From assembly GCF_004010195.1 (NCBI RefSeq), contig NC_057753.1, positions 10,416,445 through 10,437,506 on the forward strand: a DNA stretch of 21,062 nucleotides, in the 5' to 3' direction. Below are positions 3,796 to 21,062 of the stretch, piece by piece (position 1 is the stretch's first letter; each line of letters opens with the position of its first letter). Under the pieces are notes generated by a model. It was not told the DNA's origin. It saw only the letters and a list, made by a program, of their open reading frames with translations, and ran no database searches. This DNA is from Chiloscyllium plagiosum. Lineage: Eukaryota. The position numbers and the translations under genes are program-made.

Positions 3796-3995
3796 AGGTA
3801 AAAACAATGACTGCAGATGCTGGAAACCAGATTCTGGATTAGTGGTGCTGGAAGAGCACAGCAGTTCAGGCAGCATCCAAGGAGCTTTGAAATCGACGTT
3901 TTGGGCAAAAGCCCTTCATCAGGAATAAAAGCAATTAAAAGCAATTTATTCCTGATGAAGGGCGTTTGCCCGAAACGTCGATTTTACTGCTCCTC
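3796..3995. mobile_element. Small non-autonomous Penelope-like insertion: terminal repeat plus a partial inverted copy, with a 12-bp TSD
   Basis: GCTCACATATCT at 3784-3795 and 3996-4007. Inverted arms at ~3890-3929 and 3945-3984 each carry a hammerhead motif. Confidence 0.85.
3952..3979 (+). ncRNA. Minimal (PLE-type) hammerhead ribozyme motif, intact core
   Basis: CTGATGA A GGGC-GTTT-GCCC GAAAC GTC, with an ACGT palindrome in place of helix III. The minus-strand partner at 3895-3922 has GAAA changed to AAAA. Confidence 0.75.
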
Positions 3996-5022
3996 GCTCA
4001 CATATCTGATACACTGGTTTTACAAAATGGCTTCTTAGCAAGGAGGGCAAACATTTGACCATAAAATGACTTGCTGACAGATTGTGTCAGAATCTCTTCA
4101 ATGTTAGGTTTAGAACAATTTTAAGTTGGGAGCAGACTCTTGCTTTTTATCTTAAGCCCTGAATCATTTTGTACCTGAGGCTGAAATGTTCCCGTAAAGT
4201 TGCATTTAAACTGATTCATTAGTCTCAAATTAAACATGCTTTCTTTTCAGGGTTGTGATTCAAATTCAAATAAGACATAAGATCTGATTAGTTAGAATTG
4301 ACAGTGGGGCAGTCTGTGAAGTTTTAGAGTGGTGTGCAAGAACAGCAAGTAAGTTAAAGCTTCATCAATATTACCTTTTACAGAGTTTGCATTTCATAAC
4401 CAGTAATGGCTACTCAAAATTATCAAAGTCTCAAACATACAATTAAATTCAATCCATAGCAAGTAAGCACAAAGAGTTAATTTTCTACTGGCTTCAGCAG
4501 TCCCAGCGCTAAAATGGTCTCTCTGTCTCTCTCTCTTTCTCTCTGTGTCCTTTTGAACTCTCAAGTCAGGGACTTGTAACAGAAAAGATGTTTTTCCCTC
4601 TGTGTCTGCCTAGCTTGAAAGGGGTAATAAGAATCTGTTATAATTGATAGGATCTGACCGTCAATTACAAGGCTTTCGATAGTACCGAGTTTCATTTCAG
4701 GGTCAGAATCAAACACTGTCGTGAATTTCACAAGGGAACAGCCGTGAATGTTATCACTCGGTGTCCTGTTTACACAGATTCACTGATGTTAAGGCAAGTG
4801 TTCTTAATTGCCTTCGAGCATCCTGTTATCACTTGGTGAGAACAGATGTTTTAATCTTCTGCATAACATGGGTACCCCCTTTTTTTTCCCGGAGCCTCCT
4901 TGCCTGTCTATTTTTTAGTGTGCAGCAAATGTGTCCTATAATTCAACATTACATTTTAGTCTAAACGTTTAAAGGACAAGTTTTAAGGCTACAGACTTGC
5001 TCAGCCTCGTCTCAACCACCAA

Positions 5023-5255
5023 CAGAAATGACTGGATAAGGTAGGGCTTCATCTCCACAGTGCAATGAATTCCCACTTTCCACCAAAATCCCAGATGTAC
5101 TCACTCACTCAGTTGCTGTCTCACGAAGGAAACGTTTCATTGTAATTTCTGCTTGCAGGAAGGGCAAAACAGGAAGCTGCTCTGAAAGTCCAGTCTTCAC
5201 AACCACACTTCTGCTTTCACCGAAGACGATTAGAGTCATGCAGCACGGAAACAAA
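5023..5255. repeat. Local duplicated module, copy 2
   Basis: Colinear with 2718-2955, with one extra ACTC unit at ~5105. Confidence 0.9.
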
Positions 5256-5339
5256 ATTCACATAATTTTGTAAAAATCTAACTACTATGTACTAACTAAA
5301 AAAAAAGAAAAAATGTTAATTCTAAAGTTAACTAACCTT

Positions 5340-5856
5340 TTAATGACTTTGTTGGTGACTGCTTTTTGTAGGAAAGCATTTGAATATTTGGTTGCAGCAT
5401 GGAGGTCTACAGTTTTAGCTGATCCTCTAGATTGGTATCCGTCATTTGTGACACTAAGGGCGTCTTGATTTTGATTAAATAGGAGAATGTAGATTCACTG
5501 CAATAAGTGGTTGAAAAGCAAGAAAGCATTTTTCGTGCATGTTACCGAAGGCATGGGTATTCTATTGCATTTTTCCATATTTCAATCGGATCTTTCTTAG
5601 CATCAAATAAGTACTTTAGAATGTCATTTTCTGAAAGATCAATCTGTAGTTCTTTAGGAGCCTTGGAGACATCAACTAGGTGAGATTGAAATGCTAATTT
5701 GAGTGTGATGTCATGATTCTCAAAGTCAGAGAACCTTTCATTGCATTCTCCAATTAATAAGTCTATAACAGCTGCGTATTCTTCAAATGATTTGCAAGAA
5801 TCCTCCTGTTCATCAATGACCTTTGCTAACTGGGAAAAATGTTCATCCGAAAATAA
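5340..5856 (-). pseudogene. hAT transposase C-terminal (dimerisation-domain) pseudogene, GTF2IRD2/SPIN/EPM2AIP1-like
   Basis: Manual translation: LFSDEHFSQLAKVIDEQEDSCKSFEEYAAVIDLLIGECNERFSDFENHDITLKLAFQSHLVDVSKAPKELQIDLSENDILKYLFDAKKDPIEIWKNAIEYPCLR*HARKMLSCFSTTYCSESTFSYLIKIKTPLVSQMTDTNLEDQLKL*TSMLQPNIQMLSYKKQ, then a frameshift to QQSH*. Stops at 5542-5544 and 5407-5409. Confidence 0.9.
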
Positions 5857-6086
5857 AATAAATGTTGATACGGTTAGACTGTGTAACTATTCTCAAATTT
5901 CACTTCAAATGGAAAGCCACGTGCACTGTTGTCATAAGTTGATAAACACTGGTGTACTGGATACCCACAGGCTCTCGCCAACCAGCCTTGGGCAGTAATG
6001 GCACCAGTCAGGCGGGGAAGATAACGTACATTCTACCCCAGACAGACACACACACACAGACAGACAAAGACCCACATGCACACATA

Positions 6087-6311
6087 TTAGATTACATTAG
6101 ATTAGATTACTTTACAGTGTGGAAACAGGCCCTTCGGCCCAACAAGTCCACACCGACCCGCCGAAGCGTAAACCACCCATACCCCTACATTTACCCCTTA
6201 CCTAACACTACGGACAATTTAACATGGCCAATTCACCTGACCTGCACATCTTTGGACTGTGGGAGGAAACCGGAGCACCCGGAGGAAACCCACGCAGACA
6301 CGGGGAGAATG
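6087..6311 (-). mobile_element. HE1-type SINE, 3' part, cut by the assembly gap
   Basis: Near-identical to the reverse complement of 13358-13577, with an (ATTAG)n tail. Confidence 0.9.
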
Positions 6312-6952
6312 NNNNNNNNNNNNNNNNNNNNNNNNNNNNNNNNNNNNNNNNNNNNNNNNNNNNNNNNNNNNNNNNNNNNNNNNNNNNNNNNNNNNNNNNN
6401 NNNNNNNNNNNNNNNNNNNNNNNNNNNNNNNNNNNNNNNNNNNNNNNNNNNNNNNNNNNNNNNNNNNNNNNNNNNNNNNNNNNNNNNNNNNNNNNNNNNN
6501 NNNNNNNNNNNNNNNNNNNNNNNNNNNNNNNNNNNNNNNNNNNNNNNNNNNNNNNNNNNNNNNNNNNNNNNNNNNNNNNNNNNNNNNNNNNNNNNNNNNN
6601 NNNNNNNNNNNNNNNNNNNNNNNNNNNNNNNNNNNNNNNNNNNNNNNNNNNNNNNNNNNNNNNNNNNNNNNNNNNNNNNNNNNNNNNNNNNNNNNNNNNN
6701 NNNNNNNNNNNNNNNNNNNNNNNNNNNNNNNNNNNNNNNNNNNNNNNNNNNNNNNNNNNNNNNNNNNNNNNNNNNNNNNNNNNNNNNNNNNNNNNNNNNN
6801 NNNNNNNNNNNNNNNNNNNNNNNNNNNNNNNNNNNNNNNNNNNNNNNNNNNNNNNNNNNNNNNNNNNNNNNNNNNNNNNNNNNNNNNNNNNNNNNNNNNN
6901 NNNNNNNNNNNNNNNNNNNNNNNNNNNNNNNNNNNNNNNNNNNNNNNNNNNN
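6312..6952. other. Assembly gap (641 N)
   Basis: Run of N. Confidence 1.
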
Positions 6953-7022
6953 AATTTCAGTTACATCACACTGCAAATTTTTGCTATAAATTCTGTGTTA
7001 GGATCGAGCCCCCCGCTATCAC

Positions 7023-7051
7023 CTGATAAAGGAGCGTCGCTCCGAAAGCTA
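7023..7051 (+). ncRNA. Minimal hammerhead motif of a second PLE family, core mutated and probably inactive
   Basis: CAC CTGATAA A GGAGC-GTC-GCTCC GAAA GCTA GTG. It has an AGCT palindrome and a CAC/GTG helix I, but the G8-equivalent position is A. Confidence 0.6.
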
Positions 7052-7384
7052 GTGTGCTTCCAATTAAACCTGTTGGACAATAACCTGGTGTTATGTGATT
7101 TTTAACTTTGTACATTCTACAGTTGCATTATAACTAAATCATGAGCATAGCAGGTGTCGAAATAGCCCTTGTGACTTACCAAATTTTTAATTGCCCCGGT
7201 CAGTCTGTGAGGGTTATTTCGTTGAATTTTCTTTTACTCTCTAGTATTTTAAATACATTCATTTTAAGATTAAAATAAAAATAATAAAGGACGAAAAAAA
7301 CATAAAAGATTTGTTCTGCAAAATTTGGATTCATTCAAAAGGCCACACACAATGGCTTAGAAGGCCGCAGGTTCCCCACCCTTG

Positions 7385-8085
7385 TTCTAAACCCTTCCTA
7401 TTCATGGACCCATCCAGATGCTATTTAAATGTGATCATTGTGCTAGTCTCCACCACTTCCTTTGGCAGCTCGTTCCATCACAAACCACTGTCTGTGTGAA
7501 AACGTTGCCCCTCAGGTCCCTTTCCCCTTAAACCTCTGCCCCTCTAGTTCGGACTCCCCTACCCTGGGAAAAAGACTTTGGGTATTCACCCGATTCATGC
7601 CCCTTTACACTTCAATAAAGTCACCTCTCAGCCTCCCGATGCTCCAGGGTAAATTATCCCTGGCCTATATGCCTTTCCTTGTAGCTCAAACCCTCCAAAT
7701 CTGGTAACCGCCTTGTAAATCTTTTCTGAGCACTTTCAAGATTTCACAACATTCTTCTATAGGACAGAGACCAGAATTACATGCAACTTTCCAAAAATGG
7801 GCTAACCAATGTATTGTACAGCCACAACATGATATCCCAACTCCTTTACTCAATGCTCTGATCAATGAAGGAAAGCATAGGAAATGCCTTCTTCACTGGC
7901 CTATCTACCTGCGACTCCACTTTCAAGGAACTATGAACCTGCACTCCAATGTCTCTTTGTTCTGCAACACACCCCTGAAGTGTGTTGGTCATGCCTGGAT
8001 TGCTGGATCAAAATACAAGCCTCACATATCTCTAAATTATACTCCATCTGCCAGTCCTCGGCCCATTGGTCCATCCAATCAATTC
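7385..8085 (-). mobile_element. CR1-type LINE 3' region
   Basis: Reverse-strand ORF2 end, paralogous to 3030-3260. It continues the tail interrupted at 5255. Confidence 0.8.
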
Positions 8086-8264
8086 TAATTGATAGTGAAC
8101 TCTTTTTCCTCTCTTATTCCCTGGAAGCTGAAAATCTCCATCTGACACACTCCCCCTCCATTCTCACTTTGTTGAACATAATCCCTGTTGTACCTCATCC
8201 TGAAGGGTCTGGTTCATGCTAATTAACAGGCCACACTCAGAGAGGATCTAACTAAAACATACAG
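7914..8264. repeat. Local duplication, copy 1: CR1 piece, inverted ZNF intron 3'-end relic, CR1 junction
   Basis: Colinear with 9151-9466. The reverse complement of 8082-8220 resembles 15927-16049. Confidence 0.85.
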
Positions 8265-8560
8265 AATCCTGAACGGCCTGGACTGAGTGGACATTGGGAA
8301 GATGTTTCCATTGGTTGGAGAGACTAGGACCCAAGGGCACAGCCTTAGAATAAAGGGAAGACCTTTCAGAACGGAGATAAGGAGGAATTTCAGCCAGAGA
8401 GTGGTGAATCCATGGAATCCATTGCCAACAAATGCTGTGCAAGCCAGATCACTGAGGATATTAAAGACTGAGCTGGATAGGTTCTTGAGTATCAAGGAGA
8501 TTGAGGGTTACAGGGACCTGTTGGGCTGAAGGGTCTAATTTCTGCTCCTATGTCTTATGG
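8240..8560 (+). mobile_element. CR1-type LINE 3' end
   Basis: ORF 8287-8529: KMFPLVGETRTQGHSLRIKGRPFRTEIRRNFSQRVVNPWNPLP. Confidence 0.85.
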
Positions 8561-8674
8561 TCTCTTGCTGTCCTGGACACAGTGGGAGAATTGGGAGCAG
8601 GAGTAGGTCATTTGGTCTTTCAAGCCTGCACCAGCATTGAACAGATCATAAATGGATATGAATATACTTACATC

Positions 8675-9105
8675 CAGGTGGATGGCTGAGACTTTTTCAC
8701 TGGAGCACAGGAGGTTGAGAGGTGACCTGAAACAAGTTTAAAAAACCATGAGGAGTATAAATGAGGTGAATGGCAGGTGCTGTTTCCTTAGGGTGGGGGT
8801 TTAAAGATTAGGGAGCAAATTCTTAAGATGAGAGGAGAAAGATTTTTAAAAGATTTCAAATGTATTTAAAAAAAAAGACATGAGGAGCATTTTGTTTTTG
8901 AGAGTGGTTTGTGTGTGGAATGAACATCCAGAGGAAATGGTGGATGCAGGTATGGTTACAACGACATTTGGAGAATTACATGTATATGAAAGATTTAGAA
9001 GGACATGGGCCAAAAACTGGCAGGTGGGACAAGTTTAGTTTGAGAACATAGTCAGCATGGACGAGTTGGACTGAAGGGTGTGTTTCTGTGCTGTCTGACT
9101 CCAGC
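8675..9105 (+). mobile_element. CR1-type LINE 3' end
   Basis: 'ttttcactggagcacaggaggttgagaggtgacct' (FSLEHRRLRGDL) through the tail 'gaagggtgtgtttctgtgctgtctgactc'. Confidence 0.8.
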
Positions 9106-9150
9106 TGTTCTAAATTGGTCTTAAAACTATTTTCTTGCTTTCACTCATAA

Positions 9151-9466
9151 ACTCCACTTTCAAGGAACTATAAACCTGTACTCCAAGGTCTCTTTCTTCT
9201 GCAACATTCCCCTCAACTGTGTCAGTCCTGCCTGGATTGCTTGACCAAAATGCAACACCTCACATTTCTCTAAATTAAACTCCATCTAGCACACTTTAGC
9301 CTATCACCACATCTGATCAATTCTAATTTAAAGTGAATCTCCATCCCACACTCTCCCTCCATTCTTACTTTGCTGAACCTAATCCCTGCTGTACCTCATC
9401 CTGAAGGGTCTGGTTCATGCTGATTAACAGGGTCACACTCAGGAGGGATCTAATTGAAACACACAG
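9151..9466. repeat. Local duplication, copy 2
   Basis: Shares both junctions with 7914-8264 and has an internal deletion of about 30 bp. Confidence 0.85.
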
Positions 9467-9601
9467 TCCAAATTGAAACACACAGTTTCCTCCCACAGTC
9501 CAAAGATGTGCGGGTCAGGTGAATTGGCCATACTAAATTGCTGGAAATGTGTTGCTGGAAAAGCGCAGCAGGTCAGGCAGCATCCAGGGAACAGGAGAAT
9601 C

Positions 9602-9629
9602 GACGTTTCGGGCATAAGCCCTTCTTCAG
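9602..9629 (-). ncRNA. Minimal hammerhead ribozyme motif, intact core
   Basis: Minus strand reads CTGAAGA A GGGC-TTAT-GCCC GAAAC GTC. Confidence 0.75.
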
Positions 9630-9634
9630 GAACC

Positions 9635-9662
9635 CTGAAGAAGGGTTTATGCCCGAAACGTC
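9635..9662 (+). ncRNA. Minimal hammerhead ribozyme motif, intact core
   Basis: CTGAAGA A GGGT-TTAT-GCCC GAAAC GTC, with a U-G wobble closing stem II. Confidence 0.75.
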
Positions 9663-9906
9663 GATTCTCCTGTTCCCTGGATGCTGCCTGACCTGCTGCA
9701 CTTTTCCAGCAACACATTTCCAGCTCTGATCTCCAGCATCTGCAGACCTCACTTTCTCCTCATACTAAATTGCCCGTAGTGTTAGGTAAGGGGTAAATGT
9801 AGGGGTATGGGTGGTTTACGCTTCGGCGGGTCGGTGTGGACTTGTTGGGCTGAAGGGCCTGTTTCCACACTGTAAAGTAATCTAATCTAATCTCATCTAA
9901 TCTAAA

Positions 9907-10020
9907 GTACAGATAGAATACTTTCTGTGGCACATCTGTAAAAGTTGGTGAGGGTAGTTATGGACATGCTGAATTTCATAAACCTCCTGAGGGAAAGAGG
10001 TGTTGTTGTACTTTCTTGAC
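9907..10020 (-). mobile_element. Rex1/Babar-like fragment
   Basis: Paralogous to ~1585-1686 ('ctttctgtgg...catctgtaaa...ttggtgaggg...acatgctgaatttc...gtgttgttgt...ttcttgac'). Confidence 0.7.
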
Positions 10021-10059
10021 TGAGATTGTTTCCATCGTTATTCCAGATGGTGAGAACAC

Positions 10060-10805
10060 TCAAACAACCTATTGTGGAGTTTGCATTGCTGTCAGAAAGC
10101 AGTTTGTGTTCAGCAGCAGCGTAGTCACTCAGGCACTTGGTGCTGTGAGACTAAAGGTACAGAGGACCATGAGGAACCAGGGTGTTTCCAACCAACATTC
10201 AAACTGATTGTATAAACCTTTGAAGTTTCAAATGAAAACTGGAAGTTCACTTAGCCAAAAGTTAATGGAGGCATCCTGATAAAATGACCAGGAATACTTG
10301 GAATCCTGAGAAGGATTCAAGTGAATCCTAGAGAGATGTTGCATCCCTTTGACTATTCCCAGAAAGTGAATGAAATATCAAGATTCATGCAAAGATTTGT
10401 GGGAACGCTTGCAGGGAAGTAAAGAAAATTAAATTTACATTTAAGGCCATATATGCTATTCTGCTAAGTTACTCGTATTAATTTTGTCTTTGCTTAAAAA
10501 CGTGAAAAATTAAAGAACAGTTCTTCGAGTTAATCACTGGGTATTCAAATTTCTCCTCAGAATTAATGATCATAACAAAACTGGTTGTCAATGTGGGATG
10601 TTGAATCTGTAGTGTGTGCTTGGTAATGTTTTAATGAACAATATTTCAAAGTGAATTTTATCATGTTAAGTACTAAAGTTTTCTGGAGAGGAAAGATTTG
10701 CCCTTGTGTGTTTTGCAACACTTAACCAAGATCAGTTCTATAGAATAAGCGGACAATTTGATGCTAACAGTTGAGAGCTGGGGCAAAACATCAGAAATAA
10801 TGCAG
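10060..10805 (+). mobile_element. Possible degraded LTR-retrotransposon 5' end (LTR-like region plus gag-like start)
   Basis: About 10680-10805 translates FLERKDLPLCVLQHLTKISSIE*ADNLMLTVESWGKTSEIM, which resembles fish/shark Gypsy gag N-termini. This is a resemblance from memory only. Confidence 0.3.
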
Positions 10806-10809
10806 TCAG

Positions 10810-11418
10810 GAGCAGAGCAATTAGGGTTAGAAAGTTAGCCAAAAATATAAAACAGATTGGAAAGTTTTGTCAGCTTTTTTAACAGTGTTTGTTCTGTAGA
10901 AAATGAGTCTGGGGATTCAATAACAGAGGATAAAGAGATGGGCAGATGAATTGAAAAGAGCTTGAATCTGTCTTCACTAGAGAGGATACAAGTAACACCC
11001 TGGAACTAGCTGTAAATCAGGATTTGAAAGGGAGGGAGGAACTGAAGAAAATTACAATTACCAGGGAAGTAGTACTGAGTAAACTATTGGAACTACGGGT
11101 TGACAAGTCCCAGGTGCCCGAAGGATTTCATTCTAGATTCTTAAAGAAAAACTGGCTAGTGAAATAGTTAATGCATTGGTTTTAATTTTCCAAACGTCAT
11201 TAGTTTCAGGGAAGGTTCCTTTACATTGGTAAACTCCTTTCTTCAAAAAGGGAGACAGAACAGGAAACTGCAGACCACTTGTCTTAACATATGTCATAGG
11301 GAAAATGTTGAAAGCTATAATTAAAGATGTTATGACAGGGCACTTGGTATAAGTTCAAGGTAATCAGGCAGTGTGAATGTGTTTTTGTCAATAGGAAATA
11401 ATGTAATAATTTTTTGAA
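10810..11418 (+). mobile_element. CR1-type LINE ORF2 fragment (pre-RT region and RT start)
   Basis: ITITREVVLSKLLELRVDKSQVPEGFHSRFLK, TPFFKKG, GNCRPLVLTYVIGKMLKAIIKD. Frameshifted. Confidence 0.85.
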
Positions 11419-11661
11419 GAACTGCCTCTCCCCACTCTCCAGTGCTGACAGGGAATGAAATCTCTTCCCTCAGTCCCCACATTTCCACAACATCTCTAGT
11501 TCTGGTGTCCTTTTGGCTCTGTGTTTCTGATGAACAATTGAAAGTTTGACCACAGTCAGAAAACCTGTACAGTCACCCTCTACTGCGAATAGTTTAATGT
11601 TTCTTCAGTCTGTGTAACTGGTTAAAGCTCTTTCCCACAGTCAGCTCACTAGGACACTCTC
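11419..11661 (-). pseudogene. Degenerate C2H2 zinc-finger exon fragment
   Basis: Manual translation allowing frameshifts: RVS**ADCG/KSFNQLHRLKKH*TIRSRG*LYRFSDCGQTFNCSSETQSQKDTRTRDV/WKCGD*GKRFHSLSALESGERQF. Confidence 0.8.
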
Positions 11662-11825
11662 TTTCCCAACAAGGGGAAAGGTCACACAAAAGTTGAGCAG
11701 CCAGACAAAATGCAAAAGCAATAAAATGTCGAGGCACAGGGAAGAAAATTGTGGCTATACTCTTTTTTTCTCCTATCCACGTTTAGACATTTAAAATCTG
11801 TCAGTAATATCAATATCCTAAAGAA

Positions 11826-12024
11826 CATACTGCGCATGTTTGCCGGTGTCAGCAATGCAGTGCGAATGCCCGTCGGTGTCAGCAAAACACTAGGCATGCT
11901 CTTCGCTGTCCGCAAAAAAAGGCGCGAGACCTTCTTTTGATGAGTGATTAGGGAAGCCTGGAGGACCGGAAGGTGACTGGTCCACCTGCTAGTCAGAGCC
12001 CCCTTAGTGTCTGAATGCGGAAGT
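11826..12024 (+). promoter_or_regulatory. Putative ZNF gene promoter: three 30-bp NRF1-like repeats plus ETS/GABP-like sites
   Basis: TGCGCATG at 11831, TGCGAATG at 11861 and TAGGCATG at 11891. ACCGGAAG at 11965-11972 and GCGGAAGT at 12017-12024. Locally CpG-rich, upstream of a splice donor. Confidence 0.6.
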
Positions 12025-12116
12025 TGGACATGAGCTTCTGAAGCTGCTGCTGCTCCTCTCTGAATGAAGATTGAGCTTCACCCCAGACTGAAACTTCCTT
12101 CCCCTGTCCAACATCT
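12017..12116 (+). other. Putative non-coding exon 1 of the ZNF gene (start approximate)
   Basis: Ends ...ccaacatct|GTGAGT (donor 12117-12122). The downstream intron start is paralogous to 1-150. Confidence 0.55.
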
Positions 12117-12263
12117 GTGAGTACGGGACTCTATTTTCTCCCTCCTTTTTTCATTTATTTTTCATTCTGGGGTTCAATTGTTGACTTGCAACAACAGAAA
12201 GGAAAGGGAGTGAATCCAGGGAGGGGACAGATTCTGGAAAAGTTGGTCCAGGTCTGTGTCTCA

Positions 12264-12396
12264 AGTGGCAAAGTAGACAGGCAGGAGGCTGCAAGAACAC
12301 AGCAAGGCAGGCAGCATCAGGAGGTGGAGAAGTCGATGTTTCAGGTGTAACCCTTATTCAAGACTGGGGTGGGTGTATGGAGAGATGCAGATAAAG
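12264..12396 (-). mobile_element. PLE terminal-repeat fragment (third variant) with a degenerate hammerhead
   Basis: Minus strand reads TTGAATAAGGGTTACACCTGAAACATCGACTTCTCC...GATGCTGCCTG, similar to 9635-9710. Confidence 0.6.
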
Positions 12397-12507: not shown

Positions 12508-12603
12508 GTGAAAAAGAGTGTGGTGCTAGAAAAGCACAGCAGGTCTGGCAGCATCTGAGGAGCAGGTAAATGGACGTTTCGGGCAGAAGCCCTTCATCAG
12601 GAA
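12508..12603 (-). mobile_element. PLE terminal-repeat fragment
   Basis: Matches 3843-3925 and 9548-9632. Confidence 0.8.
12573..12600 (-). ncRNA. Minimal hammerhead ribozyme motif, intact core
   Basis: Minus strand reads CTGATGA A GGGC-TTCT-GCCC GAAAC GTC. Confidence 0.7.
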
Positions 12604-12604
12604 C

Positions 12605-12800
12605 TGCTTTTTCCGGAGAGTAGTGAATCTATGGAATTCTCTGCCCAATGAAGCAGTTGGATGGGTTTTGCATGGTAGGGGAATTAAGGGTAGTTGGGAC
12701 AATGCAGAGGATGAGCTGAGACGATGGATAGATCAGCCATGATCTTAATGAATGGCGGTGCAGGTTGGATGGGCCAAATGGCCTACTCCCGCTCTTTTAC
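12605..12800 (+). mobile_element. CR1-type LINE 3' tail
   Basis: RVVNLWNSLP followed by the tail 'gatcagccatgatcttaatgaatggcggtgcagg...gatgggccaaatggcctactcc'. Confidence 0.8.
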
Positions 12801-12889
12801 GCTGAAACTGTAACCCTGTATTTCCCATGGCCAACCCACCTAACCTGCACATCCCTGGACACTAGGAGCAATTTAACATGGACAATCCA

Positions 12890-13210
12890 AATCAAGGCCA
12901 GTGAGCAATGTAGTGATGTGGAAAATGACCATCAGAGAATGACAGAAAGGGACAAGGAGGATAAATTTACCAGCAATCAAACTGGATTCGAAAGATCACA
13001 AAAATTGAACCTAAAAACGGTGTGTCTGAATGTGCGCTGCATTGTAACAAAAGTGAATGAATTGAGTGCACACATTGAAGAGAATAATTATGATCTGAAA
13101 CTCCTTACAGAGACATGGCTTCAGGATGACAAGGATTGACCCTGAATATCGAGGGGGTAATCAAATGGGAAGCTAGGTAAAGGTAGAGGGTTGGCACTGC
13201 TAATCAAAGC
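12890..13210 (+). mobile_element. CR1-type LINE ORF2 N-terminus (APE endonuclease) fragment
   Basis: LKTVCLNVRCIVTKVNELSAHIEENNYDLKLLTETWLQDDKD*...GRGLALLIK. Confidence 0.85.
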
Positions 13211-13258
13211 ACTGATCACAGGGCAGACTGGTGTCAGCTTGGATTTCAGGTACTGATA

Positions 13259-13577
13259 GGCGGCACGGTGGCACAGTGGTTAGCACTGCTGCCTCACAGC
13301 GCCAAAGACCTGGGCTCAATTCCCGCCTCAGGCGACTGACTGTGTGGAGTTTGCACGTTCTCCCCGTGTCTGCGTGGGTTTCCACCGGGTGCTCCGGTTT
13401 CCTCCCACAGTCCAAAGATGTGCAGGTCAGGTGAATTGGCCATGCTAAATTACCCATCGTGTTAGGTAACGGGTGAATGTAAGGGTATGGGTGGGTTACG
13501 CTTCGGCAGGTCGGTGTGGACTTGTTGGGCCGAAGGGCCTGTTTCCACACTGTAATGTAATGTAATGTAATCTAATC
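13259..13577 (+). mobile_element. Full-length HE1-type tRNA-derived SINE
   Basis: Head 'ggcggcacggtggcacagtggttagcactgctgcctcacagcgcca' with A/B-box-like motifs, V-domain-like 'gtgtggagtttgcacgttctccccgtgtctgcgtgggtttcc', LINE-like tail and (TGTAA)n end. Confidence 0.9.
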
Positions 13578-14019
13578 GATTTCTCGTCCTCTGTTGATCT
13601 TCCCAGAGAGTATGATGTCAATCTGTTCTCAGCTCTGTTGGCTTTCTGCTGAAACTTTGACCTCCCCCTTTTACACCTTTCGGAACAATAAAACATTCAG
13701 TTAATCAAGCCCCAATCCACAACCTCCCAGCCTGTCAGCCATCCAGACACAGTGTACAGTCATAGCAGGGAATCAAACAAGAAAAATGAAACAAAATTAA
13801 AAGAAAGAAGGTGCTCATGTTTAATGTTTGTTCATTTGGAAGGAAACCAGAAATAGGAGTCCCCCAGCATTCTTATACTGCCCTACTTGAGGAATTCTCG
13901 CTCCCTTACATCTAACTATTAGTACCCAGCTATGATTTACAACAATATTTACACCAACAGAAGTAAGTCATCTGTTCTCAAATAGACATAGAAATGCACA
14001 GGATGGAAATAGACATTTT

Positions 14020-14682
14020 CTCTCTGTCATACACACACACCCACATACAAGTCCATGGGAGTGAATGTGTATTTGCAGGATTATATTTGCAGAGCTGAGC
14101 TGAGATGTCATTTTTTGTGATAAAACCTTAAGTTATCTCAAGAAGATGCCTTACAGGAAGTTCTGGGATTGACATATTAATGATACCTGCAACCCATTTG
14201 AAAAGATTAGATTACTTACAGTGTGGAAACAGGCCCTTCGGCCCAACAAGTCCACACTGACCCTCCGAAGAGCAACCCACCCAGACCCATTCCCCAACAT
14301 CTAACACTACAGGCAATTTAGCATGGCCAATTCACCTAACCTGCACATTTTTGGACTGTGGGAGGAAACCGGAGGAAACCCACGCAGACACGGGAAGAAT
14401 GTGCAAACTCCACACAGAGGCAGGAATTGAACCTGGGTCTCTGGTGCTGTGAGGCAGCAGTGCTAACCACTGTGCCACCATGCTGCCCTTAAAAGACTTA
14501 ACAATCCAGGTTTGTTCAATATGTCATTTCAGTGGCAGGACAGTGTAATGTTTTTTCCATAAATTCTGTGTCTTATGATATTATTCTCTGCAACCACCCA
14601 ATGAAGGAGCAGCACTCCAAAAGCTAGTGCTTCTAAATAAACCTGATGGACTATAACCTGGTGTTGTGTGATTTTTAACTTT
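14020..14682 (+). mobile_element. PLE 3' region plus terminal repeat (degenerate hammerhead 14598-14626), interrupted by a SINE
   Basis: Colinear with the reverse complement of 17640-18250. 'ccaatgaaggagcagcactccaaaagctagtgc' matches 7023-7058. Confidence 0.8.
14205..14488 (-). mobile_element. HE1-type SINE
   Basis: Reverse-complement match to 13259-13577 with small deletions. Confidence 0.9.
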
Positions 14683-14689
14683 ATCCATG

Positions 14690-14880
14690 TTAGGGTGGAT
14701 TTGCTATGTTAAATTACCCATAGTGTCCAGAGATGTGCAGTTTAGGTGTAGTACACAGGGAGTAAATGTAGAGCAATAGGAGTAGGGGAATGGGTGTGGG
14801 TGGGTTACCCTTCGGATGGTCGGTGTGGACTCGTTGGGCTGAGTGGCCTGCTCCCACATTGTGGGGATTCTCTGAATGGA
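14690..14880 (+). mobile_element. HE1-related SINE 3' fragment
   Basis: 'aaattacccatagtg...gggtgggttacccttcggatggtcggtgtggactcgttgggctgagtggcctg'. Confidence 0.7.
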
Positions 14881-15051
14881 AGGGATTTCTACAAACGATA
14901 CAAGGCAGTGCGGGCCAGCCGGCCGGCCGTAGCATGTGCAGTGCGGGGTCCTGCTTTCGGTGGAGCTCCGAGTCTTGCCCCGTCTCCCATTCCCTCCCGA
15001 CCCCCGACCCATTGATTGCTGTTGGGGCTGTTTCCCCCATCATGCCAGAGT

Positions 15052-15568
15052 CTGAGGGGTGACATCATGCACTTTTATAAAATCATGAGGGGCAATGGAT
15101 AGGGTAAATAGACAAGGTTTTTTCCTTGGGATGCGGGAGTCCAGAATTCGAGGGTAATAGGTTTAGGGTGAGAGCGGGGAGGGAGATGTAAAATAGACCT
15201 CAGGGGCAACTTTTTCACAGAGAGGATGGTGCATATATGGAGTGAGCTGCGAGAGGAAGTGGTGGAGGCTGGTACAATTACAACAGTTGAAAGGTATCTG
15301 GATGGGCATATGATTACAAAGGGTTCAGACGGATAGGGGCCAAGTGATGGCAAATGCAACTGGAGACATAGAGATGTATAGCATGGAAATAGACCATTCG
15401 GTCCAACCCGTCCATACCGACCAGATAGCCAACCCAATCTTAATCCCACCTGCCAGCTCCCGGCCCATACAGGGGCTAAGTGATGGCAAATGTGACTAGA
15501 TTAATTGAGGATATCTGGTCAGCTCAGACAAGTTGGGCCAAAGGGTCTGTTTCCATGCTGTATGACTA
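15052..15568 (+). mobile_element. CR1-type LINE 3' end containing an inverted CR1 tail (15365-15470)
   Basis: LRGD...YKIMRG...DLRGNFFTERMVHIWSELREEVVEAGTITT. A 30-bp direct repeat at 15335-15364 and 15471-15500 flanks the inverted tail. Confidence 0.8.
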
Positions 15569-16109
15569 ATGTCTTCGGTGAAAGCAGAACTGTGGTTGTG
15601 AAGACTGGACTTTCAGAGCAGCTTTCAAGGATGTTTTGCCCTTACTGGGAGCAGAAGAGTTGACTGAAGTGTGTCGGTGTTAATGCCTTGATGTCTCATT
15701 TTCCTTCCACCTTCCTGGGGTCGTTAACCATTTTGTGTCTGGTTGTTCCACAAGAAGCTGCTTTGCAGGTTCACCCTGAATTGACGCATTTTTTTTTGCT
15801 TCCCGAAATCAGACCTGCTCACTCTCAGTAGGATCTCAGTGTTGTGAAAGATATTAACTTTCAGATGGAGTTATCCAAAATTCAGTGAGATGTCAGACTT
15901 AATGTTTTTGTTTTTCTACCCCGATCTTGAATCAGCACCTTCAGGAGAATTAGTTAGAGCGGAGTGCAAACAGAGGGGGAGAGAGAGAGTGGGATGGAGC
16001 TTTTTGTAGAATAACAAAAGAAAAGAATATTCTGCAGAAAGTAGAATTGCTTGTTCTGAATTGTAATCTCTTGTAATCTCTTTTTGCAGGATATTTGAAG
16101 ATCTGAAGA

Positions 16110-16230
16110 GATGAAGGCCTTATGCCCGAAACATTGACTTTCCTGCTCCTTGGATTCTGCGTGACCCGTTGTGCTTTTCCAACGCCGCATTTTTCAACAC
16201 TGACTCTCCAGCGTCTGCAGTCCTCACTTT
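16110..16230 (+). mobile_element. PLE terminal-repeat fragment within the putative ZNF exon 2 (hammerhead truncated)
   Basis: 'gatgaaggccttatgcccgaaacattgactttcctgctcc...ctccagcgtctgcagtcctcacttt' matches 9637-9755. Confidence 0.8.
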
Positions 16231-16383
16231 GACGCCCATGTCTGACAGTCACTCCATCCATCGGGACCGCAACAATTTTCAACTATGATTCTGGGAGAAG
16301 GAGCAAAGCATTTGGTTCCTGTTTGAGTGCGTTTTCAGCATCAGTGGGACTGGATGAGAGAGCCTACTGTTGCAGGGCATTGA

Positions 16384-16746
16384 ATGTGGAGTGTGAAACA
16401 GATCTACGACCTGGAAAGAGGAATTCACAGCAGGGAGGAGGTGTACACACGTTTGTGTGCAGCTGAGGCTTCAGCCATGGAGAAACTTGAGGAATCCCAC
16501 CCTGTGGAGAAACCATGGGAGTGTGGCAACTGTGGGAAAGGCTTTCGCGCCCAGTCTACCCTGGAGACTCATCAGCATAGTCACACTGGGGAGAGGCCGT
16601 TCTCCTGCCCCGTGTGCGGGAAGGCCTTCAGCGATTCCTCCACCCTGTTGAGGCACCAGTGGGTCCACTCTGGGGAGAGGCCAATCACCCGCTCTCAGTG
16701 CAGGAAGGGCTTCACCCGCTCCTCCCACCTGTGGAGGCACCAGTGA
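16384..16746 (+). CDS. Short C2H2 zinc-finger protein, truncated and probably a pseudogene
   Basis: Two intact fingers (CGNCGKGFRAQSTLETHQHSH and CPVCGKAFSDSSTLLRHQWVH) with TGERPF/SGERP linkers. The third finger has lost its first Cys and ends HQ*VH (TGA, probably from CGA). A Kozak-like gccATGG lies at 16477, and the upstream acceptor is tttttgcAG at 16088-16089. Confidence 0.6.
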   Translation: MWSVKQIYDLERGIHSREEVYTRLCAAEASAMEKLEESHPVEKPWECGNCGKGFRAQSTLETHQHSHTGERPFSCPVCGKAFSDSSTLLRHQWVHSGERPITRSQCRKGFTRSSHLWRHQ

Positions 16747-16774
16747 GTTCACATGCCATCACAGAGGGATTGAA

Positions 16775-17086
16775 GGAGCGATGGCCGAGTGCCATCATCA
16801 ATCGGACTACCACCTCAGTTCCCGGTTTGAATTCCACCACAGCAGATGGCAGAATTGGAAATCGGTTAGAAATCTGGAGTTCAGAAGCTAATGATGAAAC
16901 CATTTTCAGCAGGGTCGGTCCGGGGTGAGGAGAAACCCCCATGTGATTCACTCACATCTTTTTTCGGGAAGGAAACTGCTGTTGTGGGAAAGGATTCACT
17001 GAGTCATCACAGCTGCAACCTTTACCCGGCCTGGCCGACGTGTGACTCCAGACCTACAGCAGTGTCGTTGACTCTACACTGACCCC
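16775..17086 (+). mobile_element. Old tRNA-derived SINE, DeuSINE/SacSINE1-like
   Basis: A-box-like TGGCCGAGTG (16782-16791) and B-box-like GGTTTGAATTCC (16824-16835). Core 'gggaaggaaactgc...ttacccggcctggccgacgtgtgactccagacctacagcagtgtcgttgactct'. The family name is from recollection. Confidence 0.6.
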
Positions 17087-17609
17087 ATCCCCGGCAGATG
17101 AGCGGGGAGAAACTTACTTTGAGACAGGGTGTGGGTTGAAATTGCTGCGTGAGGCAATACTTCCTCCGGGTTACAGCTGTACAAAGGATCCAGTTACAAA
17201 GGGACAACTTGATGCTGACCAATAGTCAAGAAAGTGAGGTGGGGTGGTGGGGTAGTGTGTGCGCTTTGATCTTGAGCTGTTTAAAAAGCAACTAATTTTT
17301 CTATGCCTTTTTATTGGGGGGATTCTGAAGCTGTAACAAAGTTGGGTCACAATAAAGGTTACCTTACTGCCTGGCTCAGACTAATTGAAAGCTTTGAGCT
17401 CCAAGAGGTTTTGTTTGAAAGCTGTTCTTTTCTTTCAGTATCCTGAACTAAGTTTCCAATGTCGTGTATCAGATGGAATAGTGAATGAGTAGCTAGTATC
17501 ATTCAAAATTGTAAGTTTTTCAGGAGTGCAGGTATTGTGTCATTTCATCGGCATTGTAAAGTTTAATGGCGGTGCTGGAAGGTGTGGGCTGTGTTCACTA
17601 GAAACTATG

Positions 17610-18362
17610 TGGAGGTGCCGATATTGGACTGAGGTGGATAAAGTTTAAAAATCACACAGCACCAGGTTTTGTTCAACAGGTTTATTTGGAAGCACTGACT
17701 TTCGGAGCTTGTTCCTTCATCAAGTAGCTGTGGTGAAAATGTGTTGCTGGAAAAGCGCAGCAGGTTAGGCAGCATCCAAGGAGCAGGAGAGTTGACTTTT
17801 CGGGCATGAGCCCTTCTTCAGGAATCCTGCTGCACAGCTCAAGTAGCTGTGGAGCAGGATTGTAAGACACAGATTATATAGCAAAAGATCACCGTGTCAT
17901 GCAACTGATAGAATATATTAAACAAACCTAGATTGCTGTTAAGTCTTTCATCTTTTAGAATGTGTTGCAGGTTTTGGTTCATTAATCCGTAAATCCCAGA
18001 ACATCTTTTAAGTCACGTTCTCAAAATGACTTAACTTTTTTTTTAAAGTCTCAGCTCAGAAAATGCATTAAAGATGTGAGGTTCGTGTCTGTCAGTGTCA
18101 CGCTCTTGACTAAGACTGGTTCTATTTCCAAAGTAGGAATTTGTAAAATATTACATGGATTGATTGCCTTTTGAGCAAAATTGAATGTATCTGCAAATAT
18201 AATTCTGCCAATACAAATTCACCCCATAGAGTTATGCGTGTGTGTGTGCACGTTTGCGTGAGAGTGCGTGGAATAGTGTTTGCATGCTTGATAAAGTGAG
18301 TGTGAGGGTGTGTAAGCCTGTGAGTGTGTGTGTGTCTGAGAAAGAGCTGTCTATGAGAGAGG
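17610..18362 (-). mobile_element. PLE terminal repeat plus 3' region (hammerhead 17696-17723 with TTGATGA)
   Basis: Matches 20010-20103 and the reverse complements of 14020-14682 and 6953-7109. GT-rich tract at 18237-18360. Confidence 0.85.
17734..17838 (-). mobile_element. Nested PLE terminal-repeat insertion with a 14-bp TSD (hammerhead 17794-17821)
   Basis: TCAAGTAGCTGTGG at 17720-17733 and 17839-17852. Minus strand reads CTGAAGA A GGGC-TCAT-GCCC GAAAA GTC. Confidence 0.85.
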
Positions 18363-18394
18363 TACGAATAAAAGCAAGGGGTTACGTTTTGCTA

Positions 18395-18930
18395 AGTCAA
18401 GGAAGAGCAGGACTTGTACAGGTAGTGGCCTACCTTGGGTTGTGTTGTAGAACAGAGACATGGCGGGAGAGGGGTTCAGGTACATAGTTCTTTGAAAGTT
18501 GCATCACTGGTAGACAGGGTGGTTAAGAAGGCATTTACCACTATTGCCTTCATTGTTCACATCATTGAGTATAGGAGTTGGGACATCATGTTAAGGTTGT
18601 ACAGGATGTTGGTGAAGCCACTTTCAGAGTACCGAGTCTGGTTCTGCTAGCCCTATTATTCTATTAGAGAGAGTTCGGTAAATATTTACCAGGATGTTGC
18701 CAGGACTGTAGGATTTGCATTATAAGGAGAGGCAGGGACCTTTTTCACTGGAGCACAGGAGGTCATAGTTCCGTGAAAGTGGAGTCTCAGGTGCACATGA
18801 TAGTGAAGAAGGCATTCAGTATGCTTCCATTTATTGGTCAGAGCATTGAGAGAAGGAGTTGGAAGGTCTTGTTGTGGCTGTACTGGACCTTGCTTAGACC
18901 ACTTTTGTTGAGGGGTGACCTCTTTGAGAG
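18395..18930 (+). mobile_element. Two adjacent CR1-type LINE ORF2 fragments
   Basis: GVQVHSSLKVASLVDRVVKKAF...LRLYRMLVKPLSEYRVWF and KVESQVHMIVKKAFSMLPFIGQSIE...LYWTLLRPLL. Confidence 0.85.
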
Positions 18931-19250
18931 GGGGTGGCATGGTGGCTCAGTGGTCAGCAATGCTGCCTCACAGCGCCAGGGACGCGGCTTCGATTCCTGC
19001 CTCAGGCAACTGTCTGTGTGGAGTTTGCACATTCTCCCTGTGTCTGTGTGGGTTTCCTCCGAGTGCTCCGGTTTCCTCCCATAATCCAAAGATGCACAGG
19101 CCAGATGAATTGGCCACACAAAATTGTCCATAGTGTTAGGTGCTTTAGTCAGGGGTAAATGTAGGAGAATGGGTCTGGGTGGGTTGCTCTTCAGAGGGCA
19201 ACCTGTTGGGCCAAAGGCCCTGTTTCCATACTGTAGGGAATCTAACCTAA
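18931..19250 (+). mobile_element. HE1-type SINE inserted in CR1
   Basis: Similar to 13259-13577. The CR1 reading LRGDLFE|YKIMR resumes at ~19251. Confidence 0.85.
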
Positions 19251-20006
19251 TTTATAAAATCATGAGGAGTGGCGGTAAGGTAAATAGCAAAGGCCAATCC
19301 ATCTTAACCTGCACATCCCTGGGCACTATGGGTAATTTAGCATGGCCAATCCACCCTAATCTATAAATTACCTTCTCAAGAATGTAATTTAAATGCTGAG
19401 CTTTTCTAAGAAAATCGTACTGTTTACCCTGTACCCTGACAAGTCAGTGACTTTGGGAGGAGAACAAAAATTGGAATTTCTACTTAAATATTGATGCTCC
19501 TATTTATATCTCTCTCAAAAGGAGATTGTTTGATCCATCACATTTGTAATGGCTCTTTTGCTGAATTATTTCCCTGCATCCACATATATCTGGAATCATT
19601 TCCTTTTCATGAATTTTGCAATTACCTTTATCAATTACTGGTTACATCACCCCTTCAAGATCATTCCAAATCGTAATAACTTGCTTATTTCTTAAAAATT
19701 AAATCATCTTACCCCCAGCCCAACCCTGATTTTAAAAGTGGCTGCACTATTTCCAACATGGTCATGCTTTCTAAATATTACCATGTACTTTTAATTACGA
19801 CTAAGTCTCTTTAGATTTCAATATATCTTTTTAAATGTAGAAATGCCCGTTTACATGCAGCTCAGCCCTTTAAATTTGTTATGTTTCTCCAATCGCAATC
19901 TTGCCCCCTCGATAATATATATTTACCTCTTTAGATATGACTGCCTCTTCAAGGGATATTTCTGTTTATAAATAGGGCAGTGTCTCTTTGAAGTATAGAT
20001 TCATAT

Positions 20007-21062
20007 ATTTGGAGATGCCGATGTTGGACTGAGGTGTACAAAGTTAAAAATCACACAACACCAGGTTATAGTCCAACAGGTTTAACTGGAAGCACACTAG
20101 CTTTTGAATACCACGATAGTTTCACTTCTTTCATGTGTAAAAAGTGAGGTAAGAGTTTTATATGAATTCATGCAGTTTTTGAGCAAAGTACAATGTAACT
20201 CTGTAAGTACAAATTCACCCCACAAAATATATGTGTGCATGTGGGTCTTTGTATCTGTGTGTGTGTGTCTGTCTGGGTTGGGGGTTGTGAGTGTGAGAGA
20301 GAATGTATATATGTGTGTAGTGAGTGTAGAGTGTCTTAAGTCTGTGAGGGGGTGCATGTATGAGTGTGGGAGTGTGTGCGCGTGTCTGGGGTGGGGGTGT
20401 GTGAGCGTCTGTGAGAGAGAGTGTCTATGTGTGTGCATGAGTGTAGAGTGGTCTAAGTCTCTGAGAGGGTGTCTGAGTGTGTCCCTGTGTATATGTGTGT
20501 CCCTGCGTATATGTGTGCCCGTGTGTGTGTATAGGAGTGTGTGTGTGTATAGAGGAGTGTCTGTGTGTGTGTATAGTCCAATGGTGGTCACCTGTAATGT
20601 GACATAAACCCAAGGTCCCGGTTGAGGCCCTCCCTATGGGTACCGAACTTAGCTATCAGCCTCTGCTCAGCCACTTTTCGCTGCTGCCTGTCCCGAAGTC
20701 CACCTTGGAGGATGGTCACCCGAAGTCGAATGTCCTGGACCACTGAAGTGTTCCCCAATTGGGAGGAAACACTCCTGACTGTTGATTGTCGTAGCCTTTG
20801 CTCGGTTTCCCCAATGTACCATGCCTCAGGGCATCCTTGCCTGCAATGTATAAGATAGACAACGTTGGCTGAGTAACATGAGTACCTGCCATGTACAAGG
20901 TGGGAGGTATCCCCACGCGTAATGGTGATATCCATGTCCACACTCTGACACATCTTGCAGCACCTACCATTACAGGGTTGTATGGCGTTGTCCTGAGAGC
21001 CGGGCAGCTTGCAATGAACAATGATTTGTTTGAGGTTTGGCGGTTGTTTAAAGGCAAGCAGT
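20007..21062 (-). mobile_element. Penelope-like element (probably Neptune-type): endonuclease ORF end, CA-rich 3' region and terminal repeat; runs off the window
   Basis: GIY-YIG ORF at 20588-21061, (GT)-rich tract at 20230-20572, and terminal repeat at 20007-20105 matching 7045-7113 and 17610-17700. Confidence 0.9.
20588..21061 (-). pseudogene. PLE ORF C-terminus: Cys-rich linker plus GIY-YIG endonuclease, with compensating deletions
   Basis: LLAFKQPPNLKQIIV...PCNGRCCKMC...YSCYSANVVYLIHCRQGCPEAWYIGETEQRLRQ...RKVAEQRLIAKFGTHREGLNRDLGF. The motif LPIGEHFSGPGHS lies in a shifted frame. Confidence 0.9.

What the first reader, a model, noticed from the sequence alone, without database searches (positions are those of the whole stretch)
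3895..20105. About a dozen minimal hammerhead motifs from at least three PLE repeat families, with covarying stems
Seen: motifs at 3895-3922(-), 3952-3979(+), 7023-7051(+), 9602-9629(-), 9635-9662(+), ~12333-12361(-), 12573-12600(-), 14598-14626(+), ~16110-16135(+), 17696-17723(-), 17794-17821(-) and a remnant at ~20098-20105(-). Stem II covaries between families (GGGC/GCCC versus GGAGC/GCTCC), while its loop varies freely (GTTT, TTTT, TTAT, TTCT, TCAT). The helix III position stays palindromic (ACGT versus AGCT). Established: this pattern is typical of PLE minimal hammerheads proposed to cleave as dimers. Inference: the genome may hold very many such motifs, and several fragments (12508-12603, 16110-16230, 17734-17838) terminate within a few nt of the core.
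Basis: partly seen in the sequence, partly recalled or inferred. Interest (0 to 1): 0.7.

Follow-up and report, generated by a model that had tools for sequence, protein, structure and literature searches.

The report
Penelope retroelement stubs carrying minimal hammerheads
These are real copies of a tiny predicted self-cutting RNA motif (hammerhead) already known from Penelope-like jumping genes, present about 200,000 times in this likely shark genome and mostly decayed in this window; where the copies begin and end suggests many were likely copied from the uncut front of the element's RNA, a clue to how this class replicates.

Summary
The motifs are real, but not a dozen intact ones. Of 12 listed, 5 keep the whole core (0 in 20 shuffles), 2 have one core change, 4 are decayed and 1 is a remnant. 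They are end pieces (pLTRs) of Penelope-like elements (PLEs). Families A1, A2 and B follow GIY-YIG endonuclease ORFs, show the known two-step 3' tail, and three window insertions have 12-14 bp target duplications. The genome holds 201,960 core matches (717 in the control). Stem II, helix I and the palindrome covary across nine family consensuses. Inserted copies decay neutrally, and back-to-back pairs fold into hairpins, so most are likely inert. This kind was described in 2014. Beyond that, short copies start just 5' of the core, not at the cut (replicated), with an extra G in A1. In B, RNA of a relative is polyadenylated 29-32 nt past the cut, upstream of both tail ends. So short copies are likely run-offs from a capped, uncut RNA front. 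No cleavage was shown. This scan found these readings before, on other DNA of this and other genomes.

The parts
3796..3995 (.). Family A2 head-to-head insertion: long-tail arm on (-) and short arm on (+), between 12-bp target duplications at 3784-3795 and 3996-4007
3895..3922 (-). Minimal hammerhead, A2, G12 changed to A (predicted inactive)
3952..3979 (+). Minimal hammerhead, A2, all features intact
6953..7114 (+). Family B pLTR fragment (5' end at an assembly gap): TATAAA 6985-6990, hammerhead 7023-7051 with G8 changed to A, ATTAAA 7063-7068, short tail
9540..9760 (.). Family A1 head-to-head insertion inside a SINE-like repeat; 91-nt arms 98% complementary; 13-bp target duplication at 9529-9541 and 9761-9773
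9602..9629 (-). Minimal hammerhead, A1, all features intact
9635..9662 (+). Minimal hammerhead, A1, core intact, one G-U pair in stem II
12335..12361 (-). Decayed hammerhead of family F (two core changes, palindrome broken); about 40 nt of family sequence upstream and an A-like tail
12520..12603 (-). Old A-type short copy; hammerhead 12573-12600 with intact core but first helix I pair lost; 5' end 3 nt before the core
14492..14682 (+). Family B pLTR fragment; decayed hammerhead 14598-14626 (three core changes); AATAAA 14636-14641
16110..16230 (+). Old A-type copy lacking C3-U4; lies in a unit repeated elsewhere on this contig, so not an independent end
17607..17725 (-). Family B pLTR with decayed hammerhead 17696-17723, interrupted at its 5' edge by the A1 insertion
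17734..17825 (-). A1 short copy: starts at ATTC with a G before it, hammerhead 17794-17821 (palindrome broken), short tail; 14-bp target duplication at 17720-17733 and 17839-17852
20007..20104 (-). Family B long tail; hammerhead core mostly deleted
20588..21061 (-). C-terminal part of the family B ORF (zinc-finger-like linker and GIY-YIG-like motif, internally deleted); runs into an assembly gap beyond the window
   Evidence: no Pfam hit for this copy

Best explanation
The motifs are minimal type I hammerhead motifs in the terminal repeats of Penelope-like retrotransposons, left as short, mostly decayed insertions that were likely made when reverse transcription began inside the element's 5' leader and ran off the capped, uncut front of the RNA. 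Shown: the motifs, their covariation between families, their place behind reverse transcriptase / GIY-YIG ORFs, target duplications, two 3' end points about 35 nt apart, a pile-up of 5' ends just before the core, and neutral decay after insertion. Shown for family B: a pLTR directly followed by the ORF's ATG at +93 from the cut, a TATA box 38 nt before the core, and poly(A) at +29/+32 in RNA of a related species. Inferred (about 0.6): transcription starts 4-8 nt before the core; a full B transcript would carry one hammerhead at each end, and these would pair through the 4-bp palindrome and cleave weakly, likely with help from the element's protein as reported for the anole element; priming at +55-65 or +93-100 of the leader yields 90-135 nt copies, and priming on both strands of one cut yields the head-to-head pairs. 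The inserted copies themselves are likely inert.
For: Motifs beyond chance. B core lies 322-1157 nt behind the ORF end on the same strand in 22 of 28 loci. A1/A2 cores follow endonuclease hits in 8 loci read; GIY-YIG E=4.5e-5 and 1e-4, RVT_1 E=7.9e-10. Nine family consensuses: G10.1-C11.1 in 9 of 9; pair 10.2-11.2 G-C, A-U or U-A; first two helix I pairs kept in 9 of 9 with three pair types each; flanks only 17-33% alike between A, B and C. 5' ends of young copies anchored on the tail only: in the 18 nt around the core's 5' edge, A1 39 of 54 at risk, B 11 of 14, A2 10 of 23; in the next 45 nt, 2 of 15, 0 of 3, 5 of 13; fresh tiles alone gave 22 of 23, 6 of 6, 2 of 6. At the cut +/-3: 2 of 73, 1 of 19, 1 of 27. 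Target duplications of 8 nt or more in 10 of 21 such A1 copies against 4 of 420 mismatched pairs. Base before the A1 start (template C): G not preceded by G 4,733, T 1,428. Poly(A) on 358 + 446 of 2,985 reads; 2 comparable A-runs in the genome. Internal initiation on uncut RNA was shown in vitro for another PLE (PMC11167929).
Against: No cleavage and no transcription start was observed; the start is inferred from DNA ends and motifs. 17 of 71 young A1 copies end inside the core, so the peak is broad. Family C shows no pile-up (0 of 11) and A2 a weak one with no G excess (2 G of 13 plain-flank copies). A before the A1 start is also common (3,817), and inverted partners can supply A or G. Target duplications are weak for A2 (2 of 8) and B (1 of 8). 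The catalytic dimer is not the predicted most stable fold (-12 to -16 against -21 to -30 kcal/mol). The poly(A) evidence is one run of another species (second run: 0 reads laid), may come from host transcripts, and was not seen for A1 among the six loose ends shown (158 not shown). No A element with pLTR joined to its own ORF start was found in 312 loci.
Confidence: 0.75

Rival explanations
1. Ordinary 5' truncation from the 3' end of read-through or tandem transcripts: the enzyme stalls or falls off after passing the folded or protein-bound hammerhead, so the pile-up marks a structure, not the RNA's front.
For: PLE copies are known to be heavily 5'-truncated (PMC8557442); many A1 ends lie inside the core (17 of 71); the main A lineages show no polyadenylation hexamer in the tail.
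Against: The peak's sharp edge is upstream of the structure, about 30 nt behind a TATA box in B and at an initiator-like TCATTCC in A1; extra G in A1; in B both tail ends lie beyond the used poly(A) site.
Confidence: 0.25
2. Head-to-head pairs and short copies come from self-priming on an antisense transcript, as proposed for rotifer Penelope elements.
For: Published reading of head-to-head palindromes (PMC3846280); 72 of 156 A1, 30 of 71 A2 and 14 of 51 B copies have an inverted partner; A2 carries AATAAA on the opposite strand just before the core (window 3925-3930).
Against: Single copies with target duplications end at the same point; B poly(A) reads are sense.
Confidence: 0.12
3. The short copies are a separate non-autonomous element (retrozyme or SINE-like) that is transcribed, self-cleaved and re-inserted on its own.
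For: Very many copies of uniform size; animal retrozymes derive from pLTRs (preprint 10.64898/2026.07.22.740005).
Against: No head-to-tail array among the window's repeat families; ends are not at the cut; the sequence is colinear with ORF-bearing elements; CpG decay is alike at catalytic and other sites.
Confidence: 0.08
4. The motif is kept as a promoter, protein-binding or RNA-pairing element and does not cleave in these lineages.
For: Cleavage was not needed for insertion in vitro and no RNA ends were found at the cut in the anole element (PMC11167929); minimal motifs cleave poorly (PMC4209133); few copies start at the cut.
Against: Catalytic letters and the H17 rule are kept in family consensuses across two PLE clades with covarying helix I around the cut (cores partly fixed by the search patterns); protein-assisted cleavage was shown for the anole motif.
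Confidence: 0.2

Closest known systems
Minimal hammerheads (min-HHR) in pLTRs of metazoan PLEs (Cervera and De la Pena 2014, PMC4209133; parts 1-2 of 4 read)
   Same: Type I core, one base between positions 9 and 10.1, G10.1-C11.1, palindromic 15.2-16.2, several consensus families per genome, mostly single truncated copies, some pairs on opposite strands.
   Different: Helix I is only 2-3 bp here (4-5 bp given for Schistosoma). About 200,000 core matches against about 4,000 (coelacanth) and 9,000 (Xenopus) there, with different descriptors. No shark is named in the parts read; supplements not read.
PAc, Poseidon element of Anolis carolinensis (Frangieh et al. 2024, PMC11167929; parts 1-2 of 4 read)
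   Same: Hammerhead in the pLTR, two 3' end points 30-40 nt apart, internal initiation on uncut RNA, extension of both DNA strands.
   Different: In PAc the ORF starts inside the hammerhead; in family B it starts 93 nt after the cut. A and B carry the zinc-finger-like linker of Neptune/Nematis elements. The parts read do not discuss 5' run-off copies or a poly(A) site.
Endonuclease-positive PLEs of the Neptune/Nematis type (Craig et al. 2021, PMC8557442; passages read)
   Same: RT followed by a CX2-5CxxC linker and C-terminal GIY-YIG; 5'-truncated, partial-tandem and inverted copies; 30-40 bp tail.
   Different: Clade assigned by motif only; no tree with named references was built.
Animal non-LTR retrozymes (preprint 10.64898/2026.07.22.740005; parts 1-2 of 5 read)
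   Same: Type I hammerheads, pLTR-related, non-coding; one chondrichthyan was surveyed and had them.
   Different: Retrozymes are head-to-tail tandem repeats; these are dispersed single or head-to-head copies.

Membership tests
PLE minimal hammerhead (min-HHR) | Core CUGANGA ... GAAA ... UH | tested here: met
   5 of 12 window copies intact; 201,960 genome matches against 717. One small family consensus (E, 4 copies) shows an A6 change.
PLE minimal hammerhead (min-HHR) | Stem II with G10.1-C11.1 and one unpaired base before it, supported by covariation | tested here: met
   9 of 9 family consensuses; three pair types at 10.2-11.2 and four at 10.3-11.3. Counted by hand on consensuses, no phylogeny-aware statistic; the first pair was required by the genome patterns.
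PLE minimal hammerhead (min-HHR) | Palindromic positions 15.2-16.2, no helix III loop | tested here: met
   CG in 8 consensuses, GC in B; kept in 58 of 78 A1, 46 of 59 A2, 38 of 41 B intact-core copies.
PLE minimal hammerhead (min-HHR) | Helix I closing the motif | tested here: met
   First two pairs kept in 9 of 9 consensuses with changes on both sides; third pair in 5 of 9. Shorter than the published examples.
PLE minimal hammerhead (min-HHR) | Self-cleavage as a dimer or with protein help | not testable with these tools
   Only energies were computed; the catalytic dimer is not the predicted minimum.
Endonuclease-positive Penelope-like element | ORF with reverse transcriptase and C-terminal GIY-YIG endonuclease upstream of the repeat | tested here: met
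   B: RVT_1, core behind the ORF in 22 of 28 loci; no Pfam GIY-YIG hit on the two B endonuclease pieces scanned, motif read by eye. A1/A2: GIY-YIG; RT piece has YIDD but no Pfam hit. Family F not tested.
Endonuclease-positive Penelope-like element | Pseudo-LTR before and after the ORF | tested here: met
   B: pLTR directly before the ATG in 4 of 30 loci, L253, L255, L261, L267. A: seen behind the ORF only.
Endonuclease-positive Penelope-like element | Optional 30-40 bp tail, inverted 5'-truncated partner, target duplication | tested here: met
   Two 3' end clusters in A1, A2, B and C; inverted partners; duplications of 12-14 bp in the window.
Neptune/Nematis clade | CX2-5CxxC linker and placement in an RT tree | tested here: inconclusive
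   Linker seen in A and B translations; no tree against named references.
Non-LTR retrozyme | Head-to-tail tandem repeats each with a hammerhead | tested here: not met
   Window copies are single or head-to-head; the rest of the genome was not screened for arrays.

The most novel reading that the evidence does not exclude
The PLE pseudo-LTR works like a retroviral U3-R-U5. The transcript starts just before the hammerhead and, in family B, ends 30 nt after it, so R is little more than the ribozyme and the priming sites exist only in the 5' leader. The many short hammerhead insertions are then fossil strong-stop cDNAs, and full-length copies need an end-to-end step (template transfer through R, or dimer cleavage and circularisation) that the two terminal hammerheads set up by pairing through their palindrome.
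Probability: 0.3. Interest if true: 0.7.

Novelty: new member of a known kind. Interest (0 to 1): 0.35.

Why it matters
The motif class is known, so the motifs alone are ordinary. The value lies in numbers: about 200,000 insertions record where PLE copying starts and stops in a living germline. How PLEs regenerate their terminal repeats and what their ribozyme is for are stated as open in the papers read (PMC2377424, PMC4209133, PMC11167929). The end statistics and the poly(A) site give exact positions (-32, -37, +29/+32, +55-65, +93-100) for direct tests.

Tried and rejected
Rfam found no hammerhead model; its microRNA matches at 3892-3981 and 9599-9664 are far below gathering scores and reflect the inverted arms. 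No solved-structure match for the B protein. No Pfam match for the window's own ORF piece or the A RT piece. A pile-up of copies starting at the cut was looked for and not seen (4 of 119 young A1, A2 and B copies within 3 nt); the sample is too small to exclude a few percent. Selection on inserted copies: CpG kept at 96, 90 and 94 of 125 for the G12, palindrome and cut-site CpGs, so none seen. Subfamily artefact for the 5' pile-up: 14 of 55 A1 copies shared upstream sequence in units repeated on the window's contig, so those 20 tiles were left out of the pooled counts; copies next to N or tile edges and copies under 70% of the maximal alignment score were also left out. Sequencing-run search: no RNA holder listed; run X22 laid 0 reads. 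No A pLTR-ORF start junction was found in the loci held. The paper on dimer cleavage of PLE hammerheads (Lunse et al., PMC5785218) is not held and was seen only as a citation in PMC6765202. Literature searches: hammerhead ribozyme + Penelope + shark gave one review that mentions sharks only for the head shape; Penelope-like + strong-stop gave one fungal Copia paper (listing only); searches showed nothing on run-off copies or a pLTR poly(A) site in their listings or in the passages read. These searches miss most subscription papers, and no supplements were read.
Full report
Setting. The window lies on contig C44 of an unnamed 3.56-Gb genome. Its repeats look like those of a shark (recalled, not tested). 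The window holds LINE- and SINE-like pieces, a C2H2 zinc-finger fragment and, at 20588-21061(-), the end of a retroelement ORF that has about 36,000 first-look candidates in the genome.

Observation. A descriptor scan finds 5 motifs with an intact hammerhead core, against 0 in each of 20 dinucleotide shuffles, and 7 with at most one core change, against a mean of 0.25. All 12 listed sites exist: 5 intact cores, 2 with one change (3895 G12A, 7023 G8A), 4 decayed and 1 remnant. Three (3952, 9602, 9635) meet every feature. Rfam has no matching hammerhead model.

Copy number. A generic core pattern has 201,960 matches against 717 for the reversed control. That pattern does not test stem II pairing and is too short for one long-stem family. 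Exact family patterns give 18,219 for A2 and 15,860 for B, with controls at 0. A pattern that excludes the G-G start of stem II gives 33,877 against 549; 72 of the 100 listed are the long-stem family C by my count.

Identity. Family B's core lies 322-1157 nt behind the ORF end on the same strand in 22 of 28 loci. The ORF matches RVT_1. In 4 of 30 loci the same repeat precedes the ORF, whose ATG sits 93 nt after the predicted cut. A1 and A2 cores follow a related but distant endonuclease in 8 loci read, which matches GIY-YIG; A1 and A2 are 73% identical there and 27-34% identical to B. Both carry the cysteine linker described for Neptune and Nematis elements (PMC8557442, passages); no tree was built. 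Family C follows an RT with YVDD in one locus and is absent from the window. Family F explains 12335 and was not linked to an ORF. All four families mapped show two 3' end clusters about 35 nt apart, the known PLE tail. Three window insertions have target duplications of 12, 13 and 14 bp.

Covariation. Over nine family consensuses, G10.1-C11.1 is constant, pair 10.2-11.2 is G-C, A-U or U-A, and pair 10.3-11.3 is G-C, A-U, C-G or U-G. The first two helix I pairs hold in 9 of 9, each with three pair types; the third holds in 5 of 9. Positions 15.2-16.2 are CG in eight and GC in B. Thirty bases of flank are 17-33% alike between A, B and C. The cores were partly fixed by the search patterns, but helix I was not, so it is the cleanest evidence. 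This is a hand count without correction for kinship.

State of the copies. CpG sites decay alike at G12, the palindrome and the cut site (96, 90, 94 of 125 intact), so inserted copies are not under visible selection. The 9540-9724 pair folds into a 91-bp hairpin that would bury both motifs. The catalytic dimer scores -12 to -16 kcal/mol against -21 to -30 for other folds; the energy model ignores core contacts, but this fits the weak, protein-assisted cleavage reported (PMC4209133; PMC11167929).

Where copies begin. I anchored copies on the tail alone, so the core was not required. In 96 tiles, young A1 copies ended 22 of 38 times in the 18 nt around the core's 5' edge and 1 of 16 times in the next 45 nt. 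Fourteen of 55 A1 copies in that zone shared upstream sequence in units repeated on C44, so those tiles were dropped. Forty fresh tiles gave 22 of 23 (A1), 6 of 6 (B) and 2 of 6 (A2). Pooled: A1 39 of 54, B 11 of 14, A2 10 of 23, C 0 of 11; within 3 nt of the cut, 2 of 73, 1 of 19 and 1 of 27. Also, 17 of 71 A1 copies end inside the core. Target duplications flank 10 of 21 plain A1 copies against 4 of 420 mismatched pairs, but only 2 of 8 A2 and 1 of 8 B copies. The A1 peak at -31/-32 falls on an initiator-like TCATTCC, and B has TATAAA 38 nt before the core (window 6985; motif definitions recalled). An earlier scan note suggested an extra G from the cap. Genome-wide, the base before the A1 start (template C) is a G not preceded by G 4,733 times, T 1,428 times and A 3,817 times. 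Inverted partners can supply A or G. In plain flanks A1 shows G 5, C 4, T 1; A2 shows no excess.

RNA. In one single-cell poly(A) run of a related organism (X21, about 2% read), 2,985 reads laid on a B 5' end. Poly(A) follows position +29 in 358 reads and +32 in 446, 12-15 nt behind ATTAAA/AATAAA and before a GU-rich stretch. This genome has 2 comparable A-runs. The second run laid nothing. These reads may be host transcripts ending in B copies. For A1, 3,274 reads laid, depth stepped up at the core's 5' edge, and none of the six loose ends shown was poly(A).

Mechanism. Shown: PLE end pieces with a covarying minimal hammerhead, two 3' ends, a 5' pile-up and neutral decay. Inferred: transcription starts just before the core; in B a polyadenylated transcript would carry one hammerhead at each end, which suits a dimer; both tail ends lie beyond the poly(A) site and so would exist only in the 5' leader. 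Internal priming there, as shown in vitro for the anole element, would run off the uncut front and give the 90-135 nt copies, and priming on both strands would give head-to-head pairs (72 of 156 A1 copies). Long copies would need read-through RNA, template transfer or a circle; the data do not choose among these. Rivals are stalling at the structure, antisense self-priming (PMC3846280, passages), an independent retrozyme, and a non-cleaving role.

Known and new. Minimal hammerheads in PLE repeats, their families, covariation and opposite-strand pairs were described in 2014. A start site inside the pLTR (PMC2377424, passages) and TATA/initiator motifs are also published. Run-off copies and the poly(A) site did not appear in the searches made, which miss most subscription papers; supplements were not read and may list shark motifs. 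Earlier notes of this scan reached the run-off, extra-G and poly(A) readings on this and other genomes; they are not independent support. My run-off reading and the poly(A) result preceded those look-ups; the extra-G test followed them.

Verdict. A real feature and a new member of a known kind; most copies are likely inert. Interest 0.35, mainly for the replication clues.

Noticed in passing
window 17720-17852: An A1 copy has inserted into the 5' edge of a family B hammerhead, with a 14-bp duplication and a short inverted copy of the target next to its 5' end.
   Followed up: partly
window 16050-16750 and L101-L120: The A-type copy at 16110 sits just before a C2H2 zinc-finger exon fragment, in a unit whose upstream sequence recurs in several tiles of contig C44; a long zinc-finger ORF lies in L051:8326-9999(-). 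Likely a zinc-finger gene cluster.
   Followed up: partly
G000, listing; L181-L209: Further hammerhead families absent from the window: long-stem family C (three variants, RT with YVDD, no 5' pile-up in 11 copies) and families D and E with an A-U second pair in stem II.
   Followed up: partly
L210:1360-1500, L230, L244: Short hammerhead-plus-tail copies sit directly or almost directly before 5'-truncated ORF pieces, in two cases of a different family (B-type before an A ORF, A2 before a B ORF).
   Followed up: no
L253:362-579, run X21: Four reads join the early B ORF back to position 362, which is 37 nt before the cut, the predicted start.
   Followed up: no
window 3925-3930: The A2 sequence just before the core reads AATAAA on the opposite strand; one A1 subfamily has AATAAA about 50 nt after the cut.
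   Followed up: no
L310:2232-2911, L233:600-1100: The family A ORF has a long Thr/Pro/Ser-rich stretch between its N-terminal domain and the RT.
   Followed up: no
window 6086-6311, 9761-9901, 13259-13577, 14204-14490, 18933-19250: Several copies of one SINE-like family of about 320 nt; one hosts the A1 palindrome and one splits a B fragment.
   Followed up: no
window 5542-5886(-): An ORF piece that looks like a DNA transposase C-terminus (by recall); only a weak unrelated Pfam match.
   Followed up: partly
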